A stretch of DNA of 64,000 nucleotides. Source: Leucoraja erinacea. Lineage: Eukaryota. A model generated the notes under the pieces. It did not search any database. It saw only the letters and a list, made by a program, of their open reading frames with translations, and was not told where the DNA came from. Position numbers and translations under genes: made by a program. Below are positions 11,766-62,012 of the stretch, piece after piece. How positions within the stretch are numbered: the stretch's first letter is position 1; each line of letters starts with the position of its first letter. Location of the stretch: positions 29,822,001 through 29,886,000 of the forward strand of contig NC_073395.1 of NCBI RefSeq assembly GCF_028641065.1, in the 5' to 3' direction.

Positions 11766-12073
11766 CTAACTAGTCAGCGGAAATACAACACATGATTGCA
11801 AACGAGCCATCCACTGTGTACAGATATATGATAAAGGGAATAATGTATAGTGTGAGATAAAGTGCAGTAAAGTCTGATTAAAGATCATCCGAGGGTCTCT
11901 AATGAGGTAGATAGTAGCTCAGGACTGTTCTCTTGTTGTTGGTAGGATGATTCTGTTGCCTGATAACAGCTGGGAAGAAACTGTCCCTTAATTTGGAGGT
12001 GTGCATTTTCACACTTCTATGTCTTTTGCCTGATGGGAGAGGGGAGAAGAGGGAATGGCCAGGCATGTTGATT

Positions 12074-12372
12074 ATAACATATAACCATATAACCATATAG
12101 CAATTACAGCACGGAAACAGGCCATCTCGGCCCTACAAGTCCGTGCCAAACAACTTTTTTTCCCTTAGTCCCACCTGCCTGCACTCATACCATAACCCTC
12201 CATTCCCTTCTCATCCATATGCCTATCCAATTTATTTTTAAATGATACCAATGAACCTGCCTCCACCACTTCCACTGGAAGCTCATTCCACACCGCTACC
12301 ACTCTCTGAGTAAAGAAGATCCCCCTCATATTACCCCTAAACTTCTGTCCCTTAATTCTGAAGTCATGTCCT
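12074..12372 (-). mobile_element. CR1 LINE 3' fragment with (ATGGTTAT)n tail
   Basis: ATAACCAT repeats followed by reverse-complement CR1 3' UTR. Confidence 0.8.
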
Positions 12373-13362
12373 CCCCTTCCTGCAAGAGAACAGTCCTGAG
12401 CTACTATCTACCTCATTAGAGACCCTCGGATGATCAACTGTGGATTGTTCTCCAGAGATCTTGCCTGAGTTACTCCAGTACTTTTTTGTTTTTGTAAACC
12501 AGCATCCGCAGTTCCTTGTTGCTATAAATACTTTATTCCACCTCTATTACATGCTTGAGACTCTGGCAGCCCCCTGCTCCAATTCTCCCACTCACTGGCT
12601 GTCCAAAGTGTTAATTCCCATTGATGCCAGGCGGAAGACTGAAATCAAGAGTTTAGATGGGGGCCAGTAGTTAAAATTAACCATGCCTTGCGAGCTTTTA
12701 TAACTCAAACACTTTGATCATTTTATGACTAACCCATCCGTACTCAATGCATGACTTCAGAGTCAAACCGTGGCCCTCTGTGCTTAATTGAATTTAAGGT
12801 CTGAGTTTGAGAATCCGAACAGCAGAATCCCTCAACACCACAATTATAAAAATGCATTGTACGTTGCATTAATTGTTAAACTTAAAACATCTGTTGGAGT
12901 GCTGCTGACACCTTTTAGAAATTAGCATTTAATTTGAACTATCTTATTTAATTTTGCCTTTTAGTTGCTGAATTATTTATCAACCGCTACCTTCAGGATA
13001 AAATACAACTGATTCTTAATTAGTGCAGCTGAACACATGTGTCATTCTGCCTGCTGCAAAACGTGTGTGTGGAGGATAGGAGCTGCTGTTAGCAGTGGTC
13101 TGTGCCTCATTCGTGCACAAGGTACGGAAGAAGGGAACAGTGGAAAGCAAGTGTGTGCACAGGAAGCATTAGCTATACCTTAGTCAAAAAGCCAGCTGAG
13201 GTAGCTTCTGCCTTCAGCATACGAGTGCCATTATGATGAATGTTTACAGCACTTCATCGAGAGCCAATTATCCTTTTTGTGGGAGGCCTGATGATTTGCT
13301 CACACTGTGGCTTGTACAAGCAACAGTGGATTCAGAAATGGAGTAGCTGAAGGAAAATTACT

Positions 13363-18935: not shown

Positions 18936-19470
18936 TGTTCATGCGTTCCCTATGTTTTTGTGACTTTGAAATACTATTTTGGGAGAACCCTCAGTGGCTG
19001 CAATAATGCCAAAAAATAGCGTTGCGAAATCTCCAGGTAAGCATCATGTGATGTAGAAAGGCAGGAATGTTGTGGATAGCACAATAATTAAAGGTAGCCT
19101 TCTGTACTTTATTGCTGAGATGCTGTTTACACCACTGTACAATGAGTAACAATATATATTTGAAAAAGCAGTTAATATGGTATCATCAGAGAGCTTGTAT
19201 TCTCAAAGAACAACATATACAATTATAATATAAGGAAAAATAATGTTTTTCCCTTCAATGGGCAAGGAGAACCCAGAGAAACATTAAAACATTTAGCTTA
19301 GAGATAATCTGCACCAACCACTGATCCCAGCTCACTGATCCCACACACACTTTTACATATATACCATGCCAATTACCTACACACCTGTGTTTAAGAAGGA
19401 ACTGCAGATGGGACGAATTTACATGGAGAAACTCATGGGTGCAGCAGCATCTATGGAGCGAAGGAAATAG

Positions 19471-19503
19471 GCAACGTTTCGGGCCGAAACCCTTCTTCAG
19501 ACT
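19471..19503 (-). ncRNA. Minimal type I hammerhead ribozyme motif in a PLE pseudo-LTR (intact core)
   Basis: Minus strand AGT-CTGAAGA-AGGGTTTCGGCCC-GAAA-CGTT-GC: CUGAnGA box, stem II, GAAA box, ACGT palindrome, NUH triplet. Confidence 0.6.
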
Positions 19504-19929
19504 GATCTTCTGAAAGGGTTTCGTGTGGGCTTTGAAGTTGTACGAAACTCCATAGCTTCGCTCCATGCTGCTGCAAACACAAGATCTCAGAGAAAACCTA
19601 CGTAGGTCATGGAGAGAATGTACAGACAGCGCCCGTAGTCAGGATCGAACCTAGGTCTCTGAGGCAGTAACGCTACCGCTACACCACCATGCCGCCCGTT
19701 AATAAAAAGAGATTGCAAGATGTGCAATACTAAAAATGATATTTTTGAGAACCAGTTGCTTTTTAAGAAGAAAATTATTGGAGTCACTGGATACCACTTT
19801 CCTTCATGTTTCTCTTATTTTCTGCATTGCAAGACCAATTCTACAACCATCTTTTGCATTTGTCTCCTGATCATAGGAGGACTCTTATTGCAGCTCTTCA
19901 TTGGTATATCCATACTCTCAGCTGAGAAA

Positions 19930-23337: not shown

Positions 23338-23561
23338 TTAGAGTATTATGGTCCGTTTCGGTCATTATATATAGAAAAGTTAGTAATCTCTAGATTTTGA
23401 AAGAGCATTTCAGTTCAGTCAGGAACTCCGGTCCAGTACAGCCCAACCATGGTCGTGAGTATCACCATTGTCTCCATGCTGCATAGCTTGGCATTTCAAA
23501 GAGCAGTGTGAAGGGAGAAGATGGAGCAGAAATCGCGGCAAGGACAGAACGTGTGCAGATG

Positions 23562-23776
23562 GACACAAACTGGAGTAACTCAGGGGGTCAGACAGCATCT
23601 CTGGAGAAAAGGAATAGGTGACGTCTCGGGTCGAGACCTTTCTTCAGTCTGAAGAAGGGTCTCCACCCAAAACATCACCTATTCCTTTTCTGCAGTGATG
23701 CTGTCTGACCTGTTGAGTTACTCCAGCATTTTGTGCCTATTTTCAGTTTAAACCAGCATCTGCAAATCTCTTACAC
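23562..23776. mobile_element. Palindromic (head-to-head) dimer of the PLE/hammerhead unit
   Basis: About 78-bp arms around the axis TCTTCAG-T-CTGAAGA at 23648. Confidence 0.8.
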
Positions 23777-28713: not shown

Positions 28714-28989
28714 CATTTTAACAAATTAGTTACGCTCAAATATGTCCATGGAAATATTCTTTATGTATATAGGAATGGTAACTTGATGGAAATGTATTAA
28801 TATAGATGAAAATGGGTTTGTTAAAAATGTGAGCAAATCAATCAATGTTTTGAAAGCATGACCAGGAAGAAGCCTGAAAATGGGTTTTTAAAAGACATAT
28901 AGAACCATCGACTGCTAACATTGGTGTAGAAAGGTATGGACTCATTTCTCAGTTTCTAAGTTAACGAATAACCTAGCGGTGGCTCAGCG

Positions 28990-29278
28990 GGTGCGGTGTG
29001 ATGGAGCAGCTGTAGAGTTGCTGCCTTACAGCGCTTTAAGCGCCAGAGACCTGGGTTCAATCCTGACATCGGATGCTGTCTGTACAGAGTTTGTATGTTC
29101 TCCCCGTGACCGCATAGGTTTTCTCTGAGATCTTCAGTTTCCTCCCACACTCTAAAAACGTACAGGTGTGTAAGTTACTTGGCTTAGTATAAATCGTCCC
29201 TAGTGTGTGTAGGTTAGTGTTATTGTGCGGGGATCGCTGGTTGGCGCGGACATGGTGGGCCAAAGGGCCTGTTTCCGT
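28990..29278 (+). mobile_element. HE1/V-SINE
   Basis: Same family as 26371-26676. Confidence 0.82.
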
Positions 29279-29398
29279 TGAAATGCGTATGAGATATGTT
29301 GGAGCTTCCGGTGTTGGACCTTTTAAACCAACCTAAAAGATTCTATAAACTCATTTCACGCTAAGACTAATTTGTGAATCAAATTAATTAATCCTTTG

Positions 29399-29617
29399 TT
29401 TAAGAAGGAACTGTAGATGCTGGCAAATCAAAGGTAGACAAAAATGCTGGAGAAACCCAGTGGGTGAGGCAGCATCTATGGAGCGAAGGAAATGGGCAAC
29501 ATTTTGGGTCGAAACCCTTCTTCAGAAAAAGGGCTTGACCCGAAGCGTTGCCTATTTCCTTCGCTCCATAGATGCTGCCTCATCCGCTGCGTTTCTCCAG
29601 CATTTTTGTCTACCTTC
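29399..29617. mobile_element. Palindromic dimer of the PLE/hammerhead unit with a single TSD
   Basis: About 90-bp inverted arms around 29525; ATTAATCCTTTG at 29387-29398 and 29618-29629. Confidence 0.85.
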
Positions 29618-30577
29618 ATTAATCCTTTGCAGTGACTTGGTTACTATTGACCAAACTCCTGTCCAGTAACAAAATAAAAATGCCCCAGGGCATTTTAAAA
29701 GTTCATAATTGGACAAAGTCCATTCTCCAATTACAACTGATTAGTGCATAGATTCAATAAAAGTTATACAATGGATGTTACGCATTTTACAATAGAAAAA
29801 TGAACTCAGTTTTAGGCTCCATCTATCAGAACCTCTGAAAGTGTGACTGAGATGGAGCAGCTTTCTCGCCCAATATCAGCACAACTTCAAGGAAGTTTTC
29901 GAAATTATTCGGAGAAGGAACAAACTCATCGTTTCTACCTGCTTGTTTCTGTTTGGCCAGAAAGAATAAAGTGCACTTTGCTCCCTTGGAATTCTCCAGC
30001 CATAAAGGGTAACTTCCATACAAGTTGAGAACAGAATCGAATGAACTTTGAGTCTCGTTTCTATGGCAATGTTTTTCAGGTACTGATGTGAATATTTGTG
30101 ATTCTTGTTTTAAAGGAATTAATTTTGCCTGGGTTTTATAGTTTGAGACTAGATGGACTGTCGTGGAAGATTCAATTGACATTTCATTTCGGAAGGTTGA
30201 ATTGGGATTTGTAATGGTAGATCAGGAAAGGGACAATTGAAGTTCACAGATTCTTGGTTGAAAACAGCTCTCTCTAAATTGTCGTCTGTTGACGAGTCAG
30301 TTATATTTCTGATGGTAAACAGTATTCCCTGATTATAGCATTTTTTTGTCTTCACTATTTCCTTAATTGGGAAAATAAAATGTTTAAAAGATATTTCATG
30401 CCAGCTTCCTGTATGGGAAGATACGGTGTCACTTGAATGCACAGGGCCATGGAAGACAATATGAACTGATGTGAACCAGTCATAGCCCTGCCGATTCCTT
30501 TTTACATGCTCTGTGAGTAGTGAGGATTTATTTTCTTTGCCTTTGCACATTATATTCAAACCGACCTTCTTTTCAAG

Positions 30578-34063: not shown

Positions 34064-34285
34064 GTCACAAAGTGCTGGAGTAACTCAGTGGGTCAGGCAG
34101 CATCTGCGGAGAATATGAATAGGCGACATTTCACAGAGTGCTGGAGTAACTCAGCGAGTCAGGCAGCATCTGTGGAGAACATGGATAGGTGGCATGTCAC
34201 AGAGTGCTGGAGTAACTCAGTGGGTCAGGCAGCATCTCTGGAGAAAAGGTATAGATTATAGTTCGGGTCAAGACCGTTCTTCAGT
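34064..34285 (-). repeat. Three tandem 66-bp units derived from the PLE pseudo-LTR
   Basis: TCACA(A/G)AGTGCTGGAGTAACTCAG at 34065, 34131 and 34197; degenerate hammerhead core at the right end. Confidence 0.85.
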
Positions 34286-34469: not shown

Positions 34470-35703
34470 ATGGAGTGGATTTGGAGAGGATGTTTCCACT
34501 AGTGGGAGAGTCTAGGACCAGTGGCCACAGCCTCAGAATTAAAAGGCATTCCTTTAGGAAGGAGATGAGCAGGAATTTCTTAAGTCAGAGGGTGGTGAAC
34601 TGTGGAATTCATTGCCACAGACAGCTGTGGAGGTCAAGTCAATGGACATTTTTCAGGAGGAGATTGATAGATTATTGATTGATACGGGTGTCAGAGGTAA
34701 TGGGGAGAAGGCAGGAGAATGGGTTTGAGAGGGAAAGATAGAGTCATAGAGTGATACAGTGTGGCAACAGGCCCTTCGGCCCAGCATGTCCCATCTGCAC
34801 TAGTCCCACCTGCCCACGTTTGATCCATATCCCTCCGAACCTGTCCTATCCATGTACCTGTCTATAATTGTTTCTTAAAAGTTGGGATAGACCCAGCATC
34901 AGCTACCTCCTCTGGCAGATTGTTCCATACACCTACCACCCTTTGTGCGAAAAACATACCCCACAGATTCCTATTAAATCTTTTGCCCTTCACCTTAAAC
35001 ATATGTCCTCTGCTCCTCGATTCACTTACTCTGGGCAAAAGACTCAACCATATCTACGCAAATCATGATTTTATACACCTCTATTAGATTATCCCTCATC
35101 CTCCTGTGCTCCATTAAATAGAGTCCCAGCCTACTCAACCTCTCCCTATAGCTCTGGCCCTCTAGTCCTGGCAACATCCTCATAAATCTTCACTGTACCC
35201 TTTCCAGTTTGATGACATCTTTCCTATAACATGGTGCCCAGAACTGAATACAATACTCTGAATGCGGCCTCACCAACTTCTTATGCAACTGCAACATGAC
35301 CTCCCAACTTCTATACTCAGCCTGATCCGCTGAGTTACTCCAGCACTCTGTGAAACGTCACAGAACAGGGCAAGATTAGCAAGTTTGCTGATGATACAGA
35401 AGTGAGTGGTTTTGCAGATAGTGAAGATGGTTGTGAAAGATTGCAGCAGGATCTGGATCAATCAGCCAGGTGGGCAGAGGAATGGTTGATGGTTGCATGG
35501 TTCCTTGAAGGTCGTGTCGCAGGTATATCAGGTGGTCAAAAAGTATTTTGGCACTTTGGCCTTCATCAGTCAGAGTATTGAGTATAGAGGTTGGGAGGTC
35601 ATGTTGCAGTTGTATAAGACGTTGGTGAGGCCGCATTTAGAATATTGTGTTCTATTCTGGGCACCATGTTATAGGAAAGATGTCAAACTGAAAAGAGTAC
35701 AGA
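34470..35703. mobile_element. Cluster of CR1 fragments (+ 34470-34742, - 34743-35318, + 35365-35703)
   Basis: SKFADDT and [13 protein letters not shown] remnants and 3' UTRs. Confidence 0.78.
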
Positions 35704-40885: not shown

Positions 40886-41106
40886 AGCCGGCAGGGGGGT
40901 TTAAAATTATATTGAATGAGCAACCATTAATGCAAATCAATGACCTGAATATTGATTCTAATGTAATGTAATCAAGTAACCAAGGCCTTCCGCAATGTAA
41001 AGAGAATGTGTGGGTGCGGTGGCCAGAACATGCCACAAAGCAATTGAGAAACCTCTGTCTGGAGGTTAAACAGATCCCTCTAGGTTAGCTAACTGTCAGA
41101 AATAAT

Positions 41107-41310
41107 GTGTATGGAGGAACTGCAGATGCCGGTTTACACTAAAGATAGACACAAAATGCTGGAGCAACTCAGCGCATCAGGCGGCATCTCTGGAGAAAAG
41201 GAATAGATGACGTTTCGGGACTAAAGAAGGGTCTTTCCCCGAAACATTACCGTTTCCTTTTCTTTGGAGATGCTGCCTGACCCTGTGAGTTGCTCCAGCA
41301 TTTGTGTCTC
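41107..41310. mobile_element. Palindromic dimer of the PLE/hammerhead unit
   Basis: Inverted arms 41147-41219 and 41221-41309. Confidence 0.78.
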
Positions 41311-41317
41311 TCCATAT

Positions 41318-60297: not shown

Positions 60298-62012
60298 TCT
60301 CTAATTTCTAATACCTCTCATCTTCTCATTTCCTCATTGCCCATAAACTACACCTCTCCCAATGATTCCCCCCATTTTACCCCTGAAACCATATCTTCTG
60401 CAGCTTCTTTCCCAGCCACCTCCAAGATCTCCGACTCACTTTGTCCACGAGATCCACTTCCTAGTCACCCCACCAATTTTATACTAAATTGAGTGTATGG
60501 CTAAGCTTTCCTGCCGCCAAGCCAGCTGATGCCATAATTAGTACCCCTTTCGTCTGTACTTTGCTCAACCTCTCAAAGCTATTGTCTCTGATCCTGTGCT
60601 CAAAAAATCTCATCCACCATCTCTCTGGCCTTGAAAGCAGCATCTCCAACTCCACCCTCTCTCTCTCTCTATTCGTTTAATGCTCCTGCCGGCCATATAA
60701 TTGCCTTCCCCGTTGAGGCTTTCCAAGGCATCATAAAGTTCCATGAAGTGCCTTATGCCACTTCCACTATTAAAGGCAGCACATAAATTCAAGATGTCAT
60801 TCAGATTAATTAACTCATTGATTCCAGCAGCCATAACAAATGGCACCTGCTCCTGTTCTTAATGTCTTTACAATCACGAGCTAAAACAAAGGAGTTTTAA
60901 ACTCATAGCAATATCCTAAAAATCATTGATTGATTGAAACCTTTGGGGTGGAATTGTTCCTGCAGTACAGTAGTGCAGCCCTTTGTCTTGAAGTGGTCTT
61001 TGAGGAAAACAATGGGGGAAAGCAGCTTCCTTACCTGCCGTGGGCTGCCTAGCAACGAGGAAACATTTTATCAGCTTGCAATTTCACCTCAAAATAAAAT
61101 GTGTGTGGCCTTGTCTGGCATGTTATTTGGCTTCATTATAATTTTGTAATTTGAGTTGTCAAATCTACGGCAACTGGCAGTTGTATGTTAATTATATTTA
61201 AAGCTTGACTGGATGACACTTTGTCAGGAAAATTGGTTATCCAGTCATTGTGCATCTCTGGCTAAATGGTCTGGTGTACAGAAAATGTTGTAAAGAAAAA
61301 AAAAACCATATCCACACTTACAGAGAGAGAATGCTAGTCTCTGAATAATTGCTGCCTGACCCGCTGAATTACTCCAGCATTTTGTTTATATCTTCGATTT
61401 AAACCAGCATCTGCAGTTCTTTCCTACATGCTTTGTGTTCTTGTGCTGGCTATCAAAGTAGTAATTGTTGGTTTGATGGGGATGTGTCTGTCCACACACA
61501 AATGAATATGGCAAAGGTTGAACTGATCCCAAAACCTATGTGATTTGGCGAGTATTCCAAACCTCAGATAGTCATCTGTAAAGGTCACAATTAAAGATCG
61601 TAAGCTAACACTGTATCAAGTGCTGAGAACACTCCCAGACATGTACTTGTCCCATTTCATCCTGTGACACTCTCTGGGATATTGGTCTTAATTTCCGACA
61701 CAGAATCGTTTCTGGCACACGAGTCGTCCTTGAGGCAGTGTCACCGACCGGGTGTCAAACGAAGCTTGAATTATTAATCAGTGATGATAAAATCTAAAAC
61801 CTCAAGAACCAGAGTGCTGGATGAATTCAGCGGGTCAAGTAACATCCATAGAGGCAAGAGATATATGCCAACGTTTTGGGTCAATACCCTGCTTCACCTT
61901 GTCCTGCCCTGATGCAGGGTTTTGACCTGAGAGATTGACATAAACCTTTCTCCTCGATAAATTGTTTCCGAGTTCTTCTCGTGTCTTGCTTGTCATTTAA
62001 ACCAACTAAATA

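What the first reader, a model, noticed from the sequence alone, without database searches (positions are those of the whole stretch)
29387..29629. Recurrent head-to-head palindromic hammerhead dimers inserted as single events
Seen: three clear palindromes (axes near 23648, 29525 and 41220; weaker ones near 19505 and 61905) consist of two inverted pseudo-LTR units joined at the ribozyme motif. The 29399-29617 dimer is enclosed by one 12-bp TSD (ATTAATCCTTTG), so it integrated as a unit. Its arms share subfamily-diagnostic sequence that differs from the other dimers, implying repeated independent formation. Known: Penelope insertions often have an inverted pseudo-LTR at the truncated 5' end. 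Inference: the hammerhead stem acts as the fold-back or priming point, giving MITE-like hairpins with the motif on both strands that could yield dsRNA.
Basis: partly seen in the sequence, partly recalled or inferred. Interest (0 to 1): 0.7.

Follow-up and report, generated by a model that had tools for sequence, protein, structure and literature searches.

The report
Mirror-image Penelope stump from double priming
This 219-base DNA hairpin is one of very many mirror-image stumps of a Penelope-type jumping gene in a skate-like fish; it was likely built as it landed, from two short DNA copies primed on opposite sides of one cut and joined head to head, and both of its ribozyme motifs are broken.

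Summary
Confirmed: 29399-29617 is a head-to-head pair of Penelope-like element (PLE) ends inside the duplication ATTAATCCTTTG. The parent encodes RT plus a C-terminal GIY-YIG nuclease. Such pairs are common: 70 in 864 kb sampled (5.5 expected), roughly 180,000 genome-wide. The layout is known (Arkhipova 2013), and the scan noted it in six other windows.

The census speaks to the mechanism. 41 of 42 pairs with a target duplication carry the ~35-nt tail on exactly one arm. The tailed arm is the 5'-shortened one in 42 of 66 asymmetric pairs, which fold-back of one target-primed cDNA cannot make. The inner ends of the arms behave as independent draws that peak 1-5 nt before the hammerhead core, at TCAG-T-CTGA, not at the cleavage site; solo stumps stop there too. 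Arms match in subfamily (108 of 111), and junctions vary, so these are not a MITE family.

Best model: both overhangs of one staggered cut prime reverse transcription, at the element's two start sites, and the cDNAs are end-joined. Neither focal ribozyme core is intact, and no RNA reads cover its unique flanks.

The parts
29387..29398 (+). Left copy of the target-site duplication ATTAATCCTTTG (15 bp with one mismatch if extended to 29384)
29399..29430 (-). PLE tail, about 32 nt, on this arm only; in tandem copies the same tail leads into the ORF
29431..29526 (-). Tailed arm: pLTR core that starts 1 nt before the CUGA box
29498..29525 (-). Minimal hammerhead motif of the left arm: CUGAAGA and stem II present, GAAA changed to AAAA
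29525..29526 (.). Head-to-head joint; the 2 nt GA fit either arm; 4 nt short of the perfect TCAG-N-CTGA axis
29527..29617 (+). Tail-less arm: starts inside the CUGAAGA box, reads GAAG for GAAA, ends at the proximal start site where 2 nt overlap the extended duplication
29618..29629 (+). Right copy of the target-site duplication
23557..23776 (.). Second pair, other subfamily; exact TCAG-T-CTGA axis at 23648; tail on the right arm; 14% arm divergence; no clear duplication
41106..41316 (.). Third pair; tailed left arm cut off in stem II, right arm starts at the CUGA box; 19% arm divergence; no clear duplication
19390..19585 (.). Tailed arm on the minus strand with an intact core motif, followed by a scrambled second arm
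61815..61960 (.). Old decayed pair

Best explanation
This is the shortest form of an inverted Penelope-like insertion, likely made when both ends of one staggered cut in the target each primed a short cDNA on the element's RNA and the two cDNAs were then joined head to head. Shown: a PLE parent with RT and GIY-YIG nuclease; duplications of mostly 13-16 bp; one tailed and one tail-less arm; inner ends that vary independently with a peak 1-5 nt before the hammerhead core. Inferred: (1) the nuclease leaves two 3' overhangs; (2) one is primed at the distal start site (tail end), the other about 35 nt further in, helped by 1-2 nt of pairing; (3) each RT runs towards the RNA 5' end and often stops at TCAGT, perhaps because the RNA begins there (it fits the recalled initiator consensus YYANWYY); (4) the two cDNA 3' ends are joined, at best through TCAG-A-CTGA, which pairs with itself around an A.A mismatch and so gives A or T at the centre. 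The hammerhead is a passenger beside the stop point, and a transcript would lock it into the long hairpin.
For: Parent: the sequence upstream of the arms encodes a GIY-YIG domain with CxxC; long copies hold RVT_1 plus GIY-YIG; partial tandems read pLTR-tail-ORF. One-tail rule: 41 of 42 duplicated pairs not selected with the focal query, p = 1e-11 against 0.5. Both start sites are used alone: 118 tailed and 116 short-ended among 285 solo arms. Non-nested arms: tailed arm shorter at 5' in 42, tail-less arm shorter in 24, equal in 20 of 86; 15, 9 and 8 among those with a duplication. In L206 a short tailed arm is joined to a ~1.8-kb tail-less copy inside a 15-bp duplication. Independence: both, one or no inner end at the hot spot in 18, 58, 32 of 108; expected 20.5, 53.1, 34.5. 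Solo stumps with a duplication (11 of 83; control 0 of 200) start at -7 to +2 in 10 of 11. Centre base, tail arm on the left: A 10, T 8 in the junction-selected set; A 12, T 14, G 1 overall. Overlap of the short end with the duplication averages 1.63 nt against 0.50 shuffled (maximum 0.90; 49 of 58 pairs usable). In vitro the anole PLE protein cuts and extends both strands, starts at two internal sites that bound the tail, and is predicted to be a dimer (PMC11167929).
Against: All steps are read from old insertions; no intermediate was seen. The biochemistry is from a Poseidon element, while this family has the C-x4-C-x2-C linker of Neptune/Nematis. Fast deletion at a fresh palindrome centre could mimic shortened arms. 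The hot-spot window (-8 to +7) was chosen after seeing the data, and only pairs with inner ends within 60 bp were counted. Only 22 of 108 unselected pairs keep a duplication scoring 10 or more. Junction microhomology is modest: one-sided mean 1.0 nt in 34 pairs without inserted bases, many with none, no control run. The RNA start at TCAGT is untested: no pile-up of read starts appeared there, and a DPE at the usual spacing is not evident. Solo stumps with clean duplications show that a second cDNA is not obligatory.
Confidence: 0.65

Rival explanations
1. Self-priming: one cDNA, or an antisense RNA, folds back at a short palindrome and copies itself; later deletions at the hairpin centre make the arms unequal.
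For: PMC3846280 Discussion reads junction palindromes as self-priming. Arms are closer to each other than to other pairs (median 0.096 against 0.170) and share 41 rare variants against 11.3 shuffled, maximum 23. 856 and 1313 exact matches to the perfect-axis junction in two subfamilies. Long palindromes are known to lose their centres (recalled).
Against: A copy of a tail-less cDNA cannot gain a tail, yet the tailed arm is the shorter one in 42 of 66 asymmetric pairs, including young ones (L032, 1.8% arm divergence; L171, 0%) and L206. Asymmetry does not grow with age: Spearman -0.08, p = 0.48; both ends at the hot spot in 2 of 24 young and 16 of 72 old pairs. Solo stumps share the same boundary.
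Confidence: 0.15
2. A fold-back hairpin forms off the chromosome with both arms long; the nuclease cuts its stem in a staggered way, once at each site, and the piece is inserted, which also leaves one tail.
For: Explains the one-tail rule. PMC8557442 ascribes the tail to nuclease resolution of an intermediate.
Against: A cut of fixed polarity would put the tail always on the longer or always on the shorter arm; 42 against 24 is seen. The short end spreads over about positions 86-96 and overlaps the target duplication, as priming would. PMC11167929 maps the tail to two RT start sites.
Confidence: 0.1
3. The hairpins are a MITE-like family that is copied as a unit.
For: All 40 scored best matches to the focal pair cover nearly its whole length.
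Against: Those 40 were selected for likeness. Unselected junctions differ widely; the centre base is A or T; none of 17 diagnostic columns separates tailed from tail-less arms (lowest p = 0.03, at a CpG); the short end shifts with each target.
Confidence: 0.03
4. Ribozyme cleavage sets the axis, or the pair acts as a double hammerhead.
For: The family carries a well-formed minimal hammerhead (68 intact motifs; stem II pairs 88-94% kept), and such motifs are thought to work as dimers (PMC4209133).
Against: The cleavage site is at +27/28, where inner ends show no peak (2 and 0 of 216, against 51 at -5 to -1). Inverted copies give one sense and one antisense motif zipped into a hairpin, not two sense cores. 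Both cores are intact in 1 of 108 pairs and in neither focal arm.
Confidence: 0.03

Closest known systems
EN+ Penelope-like insertions with inverted pLTR, one-sided tail, junction palindrome and target duplication (Adineta Pen2a, PMC3846280; general scheme in PMC8557442)
   Same: Head-to-head inverted 5'-truncated copy, 30-40 nt tail on one end, duplication around the whole unit, short palindrome at the joint, initiator-like motif in the pLTR.
   Different: Here the unit is reduced to two arms of about 95 and 130 nt and occurs about 10^5 times. The one-tail rule, the independent inner ends and the non-nested arms argue against the self-priming reading of that paper.
Poseidon PAc of Anolis in vitro (PMC11167929)
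   Same: Two RT start sites that bound the tail, both target strands cut and extended, hammerhead in the pLTR, cleavage not needed for insertion.
   Different: That paper, in the text I read, does not treat inverted pairs or the coupling of the two sites within one insertion. Its ORF starts in stem II; here it starts about 40 nt after the tail. This family has a Neptune/Nematis-type linker.
L1 twin priming (recalled; mentioned in bioRxiv 10.1101/2024.12.14.628481, passages)
   Same: Both target ends prime cDNA, and the two cDNAs are joined in inverted orientation inside one duplication.
   Different: In L1 the two cDNAs copy different, adjacent parts of the RNA; here they copy the same part, from start sites about 35 nt apart, with no poly(A).
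Minimal hammerheads of metazoan PLEs (PMC4209133) and non-LTR retrozymes (10.64898/2026.07.22.740005)
   Same: CUGANGA, one extra base, G-C closed stem II, GAAA, palindromic CG, short helix I.
   Different: Retrozymes are head-to-tail tandems with two sense cores; these pairs are inverted, and the focal cores are broken.
MITEs
   Same: Short inverted-repeat unit with a target duplication.
   Different: Made anew at each retro-insertion, unequal ends, variable duplication length, no sign of copying as a unit.

Membership tests
EN+ Penelope-like element | One ORF with RT followed by a C-terminal GIY-YIG nuclease | tested here: met
   L207 ORF: RVT_1 E 1.6e-6 and GIY-YIG E 7e-4, both just under the curated cut-offs; L201 RVT_1 and L116 GIY-YIG above them.
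EN+ Penelope-like element | CCHH motif with two cysteines between GIY and YIG | tested here: met
   Translations read LIYCIRCSRCQLIYIGET, then EH and QHFN; definition in PMC8557442.
EN+ Penelope-like element | pLTR formed by partial tandems | tested here: met
   In L229, L230, L234, L238, L239, L240, L243, L244 and L248 (9 of 30 loci) 3' UTR, pLTR and tail precede the ORF.
EN+ Penelope-like element | [quoted passage not shown] | tested here: met
   41 of 42 duplicated pairs have one tail; the focal pair has it on the left.
EN+ Penelope-like element | Target duplication of variable length | tested here: met
   10-21 bp, 45 of 64 at 13-16 bp including end overlaps; control 1 of 400.
Neptune/Nematis clade | CX2-5CxxC linker between RT and nuclease | tested here: met
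   FPCNRRKCYTC and variants in the translations.
Neptune/Nematis clade | Placement in an RT phylogeny with named references | not tested
   No named reference sequences were fetched; the homologue search gave only uncharacterised names.
Minimal hammerhead (family consensus) | Core boxes, extra base, stem II, CG palindrome, UH | tested here: met
   68 intact motifs in the sample: stem II pairs 88-94% kept, extra base A in 65, CG in 44, UC or UU in 66; helix I only 2 bp. Only one-sided pair changes. No Rfam hammerhead model matched the window.
Minimal hammerhead (focal copy) | Intact CUGANGA and GAAA on at least one strand | tested here: not met
Double hammerhead | Two sense cores able to pair through helix III | tested here: not met
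   The arms are inverted and fold into one long hairpin.
Hammerhead ribozyme | Self-cleavage | not testable with these tools
   No pile-up of read ends at the site in fragmented libraries, which is not a test.
MITE | Copied as a unit with fixed ends and interior | tested here: not met
   Junctions, centre base and short ends vary; no arm-specific fixed differences.

The most novel reading that the evidence does not exclude
The skate stumps record the unexplained Penelope insertion cycle: a dimeric RT-nuclease on a single RNA primes both overhangs of its cut, one subunit at each of two start sites 35 nt apart, copies the 5' pLTR to the RNA start at an initiator that is also a palindrome, and the two strong-stop cDNAs anneal there. 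This one rule would explain the one-sided tail, the inverted pLTR and about a million solo and paired stumps, and would replace self-priming. The excess of shortened tailed arms (42 against 24, p = 0.036) fits the trailing RT having to displace the leading cDNA.
Probability: 0.35. Interest if true: 0.7.

Novelty: new member of a known kind. Interest (0 to 1): 0.42.

Why it matters
The copy itself is a dead fossil of a known layout. The class matters because how PLEs make inverted ends and one-sided tails is called undefined in PMC8557442, and this genome holds on the order of 10^5 natural products that separate the models. The counts favour priming from both target ends over the published self-priming idea, and they give sharp predictions for the existing in vitro system. 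The pairs are also a large store of 90-bp hairpins, some of them transcribed.

Tried and rejected
Rfam: no hammerhead match; the MIR1507 hits are far below the gathering score and reflect the hairpin. Ribozyme cleavage as axis: no peak of inner ends at +27/28. Splicing at the CAG after the pyrimidine tract, as in D. virilis where the intron ends at helix I: AG is kept in 58% of solo stumps, duplications abut the stumps directly, and no such joint was among the 15 best-supported shown of 116; not excluded for rare RNAs. Age-dependent erosion of perfect palindromes: no trend. RNA start or cleavage from reads: no pile-up, libraries unsuited. Editing: differences in reads come from other copies (90-98% of reads run on into unlike sequence), so says nothing on editing of this copy; no small-RNA data were available. 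The run search listed no holder on record as RNA. Subfamily match cannot tell one RNA from two, since subfamilies were probably active at different times. A first pass missed the focal duplication because flank resembled tail; one search found it. Literature searches for an earlier two-primer account of PLE inversions found none, but subscription reviews of 2005-2006 are not in the library and no supplements were read; Figs S1-S2 of PMC11167929 may bear on it.

Full report
Observation. The insert 29399-29617 has a left arm on the minus strand (29399-29526) and a right arm on the plus strand (29527-29617), 88% complementary over 89 nt, between two copies of ATTAATCCTTTG. It folds as one hairpin, z = -21. 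The pairs at 23648 and 41220 are real; those at 19505 and 61905 have a decayed second arm. The arms are unequal: the left has a 32-nt extension that the right lacks.

Parent element. A pattern for arms that read on past the motif has 1849 exact matches in the genome. The sequence upstream encodes a GIY-YIG nuclease with two cysteines between the motifs and a C-x4-C-x2-C linker. Longer copies hold RT and nuclease in one frame. In 9 of 30 loci fetched at the ORF start, 3' UTR, arm and extension precede the ORF, which begins about 40 nt after the extension. The arm is therefore the pLTR end of an EN+ Penelope-like element and the extension is its tail. The linker points to Neptune/Nematis (PMC8557442, passages); no tree was built. 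The best named homologues are from sharks and rays.

Census. I took 80 stretches of 10 kb at fixed positions on the 20 largest contigs, plus the window (864 kb). A profile found 425 arms and none in reversed sequence. 70 pairs were head to head, 4 tail to tail and 15 in tandem; 5.5 head-to-head pairs are expected by chance. Scaled up this is about 1.1 million arms and 180,000 pairs, a rough figure because small contigs were not sampled. The perfect junction alone has 856 and 1313 exact matches in two subfamilies. Pooling all loci gave 164 distinct pairs: 71 from the sample, 37 found by chance in flanks, 24 selected by junction, 29 selected with the focal query and 3 others. The 108 from sample and flanks are the unselected set.

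Outer ends. Duplications scoring 10 or more were found in 18 of 71, 5 of 37, 17 of 24, 22 of 29 and 2 of 3 pairs, against 1 of 400 mismatched flanks; most are 13-16 bp. Leaving out the query-selected set, 41 of 42 duplicated pairs have exactly one tail; 86 of the 108 unselected pairs do. Free choice of site by each arm would give at most half. Solo arms use both ends about equally, 118 and 116 of 285. The short end spreads over about ten positions and overlaps the duplication by 1.63 nt on average, against 0.50 when shuffled (49 of 58 pairs; 9 dropped for a poor anchor). Long insertions follow the same rule: L206 and L219 have a tailed inverted arm, a tail-less direct copy and a 15-bp duplication.

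Inner ends. With the C of CUGA as 0, 51 of 216 inner ends lie at -5 to -1 and 94 at -8 to +7; the cleavage site at +27/28 has 2 and 0. Both, one or neither end of a pair lies in the hot zone in 18, 58 and 32 cases, against 20.5, 53.1 and 34.5 for independent draws. Only 10 of 108 have the near-exact symmetric axis. Solo stumps share the boundary: identity to the element drops between -3 (58%) and -4 (39%), and 10 of 11 solos with a duplication start at -7 to +2 with target DNA directly adjoining. Family-wide RNA reads also lose likeness most often at -2 and -3, which reflects the genomic copies. The element there reads TCAG-T-CTGA, a palindrome around one base; at exact junctions the centre is A in 12 and T in 14 pairs, as expected if two cDNA ends pair around an A.A mismatch.

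Test of fold-back. A cDNA primed at the target that folds back can only copy itself, so the second arm must lie within the first. In 42 of 86 one-tail pairs the tailed arm is the shorter at the inner end by 10 nt or more, so neither arm contains the other; the reverse holds in 24, and 20 are equal. Among pairs with a duplication the numbers are 15, 9 and 8. Later deletion could make such asymmetry, but it does not grow with arm divergence (rho -0.08, p = 0.48), and it is present in pairs with 0-2% divergence. Very fast deletion just after insertion is not excluded.

Test of a MITE family. In 111 one-tail pairs with at least 45 shared columns (selected sets included), arms share the subfamily in 108, are closer to each other than to other pairs (0.096 against 0.170) and share 41 rare variants against 11.3 shuffled. 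No diagnostic column separates tailed from tail-less arms. Each pair was made anew from one source element.

Ribozyme. The family motif fits the minimal hammerhead of PMC4209133 (passages). Both cores are intact in 1 of 108 pairs, one in 31, none in 76, and none in the focal pair. An inverted pair gives one sense and one antisense motif in a long helix, not a double hammerhead. In four RNA runs the unique flanks of the focal pair had no depth, apart from one bin at depth 1, and the reads on the arms came from other copies. Reads that cross head-to-head junctions of other copies exist.

Mechanism. PMC11167929 (abstract, main text and part of the methods read) shows that the anole PLE protein cuts and extends both strands, starts at two internal sites that bound the tail, and does not need ribozyme cleavage. 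The simplest account of the census is that both 3' overhangs of one cut are primed, one at each site, and that the two cDNAs are joined where they stop. Why they stop at TCAGT is open. An RNA start is my best guess: the motif fits the recalled initiator consensus, and D. virilis Penelope has an internal promoter (PMC2377424, passages and section 15). Initiation at the 5' pLTR would then yield exactly these 95- and 130-nt stumps. This step is untested.

Comparison and verdict. The layout is described in PMC3846280 (passages and Discussion), which reads it as self-priming, and in PMC8557442 (passages), which calls the cycle undefined. Of the retrozyme preprint and the L1 preprint I saw passages only; L1 twin priming is otherwise recalled. 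Six earlier scan notes describe the same kind of stump; I had formed my reading before seeing them and did not check their loci. The focal copy is an ordinary dead member of a known kind. The population evidence on how such insertions form is the part of interest.

Noticed in passing
window 28980-29280: A different abundant short repeat (tRNA-like head, probably a SINE of cartilaginous fishes; label recalled) lies just left of the pair and collects multi-copy reads.
   Followed up: no
L201:3495-3627: 133 nt of unrelated sequence sit between the inverted tailed arm and the element body of a near-complete copy; none of the 40 scored matches covers it. Possibly a captured piece of host RNA or DNA.
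   Followed up: partly
L238:1980-2065 (minus strand): The tail is predicted to pair back onto the pLTR core, leaving a 13-nt bulge at the proximal start site and the distal site just after the stem; this could be the structure that places the two starts (fold overall not better than shuffles).
   Followed up: partly
L238:2154-3100: In the two single-cell runs, reads on the nuclease region lie mostly on the strand antisense to the element; coverage of the ORF start behind the tail is very low in all four runs.
   Followed up: no
L039:3037-3269, L039:4633-4881, L216:5269-5405: Stumps are often inserted into older copies of the same family, including inside the pLTR.
   Followed up: no
window 34069-34284; L034:438-682; L218:3078-3314: Head-to-tail runs of part of the arm (39-70 nt units), a possible route to retrozyme-like tandems.
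   Followed up: no
window 35213-35685, 11883-12435, 797-1211: Other inverted repeats not related to the arm profile, one with 53-nt perfect arms.
   Followed up: no
L033:4718-4930, L039:7247-7451, L108:6987-7175: A recurrent second junction class joins stem II of one arm to the three bases before CUGA of the other through a 3-4 nt match.
   Followed up: partly
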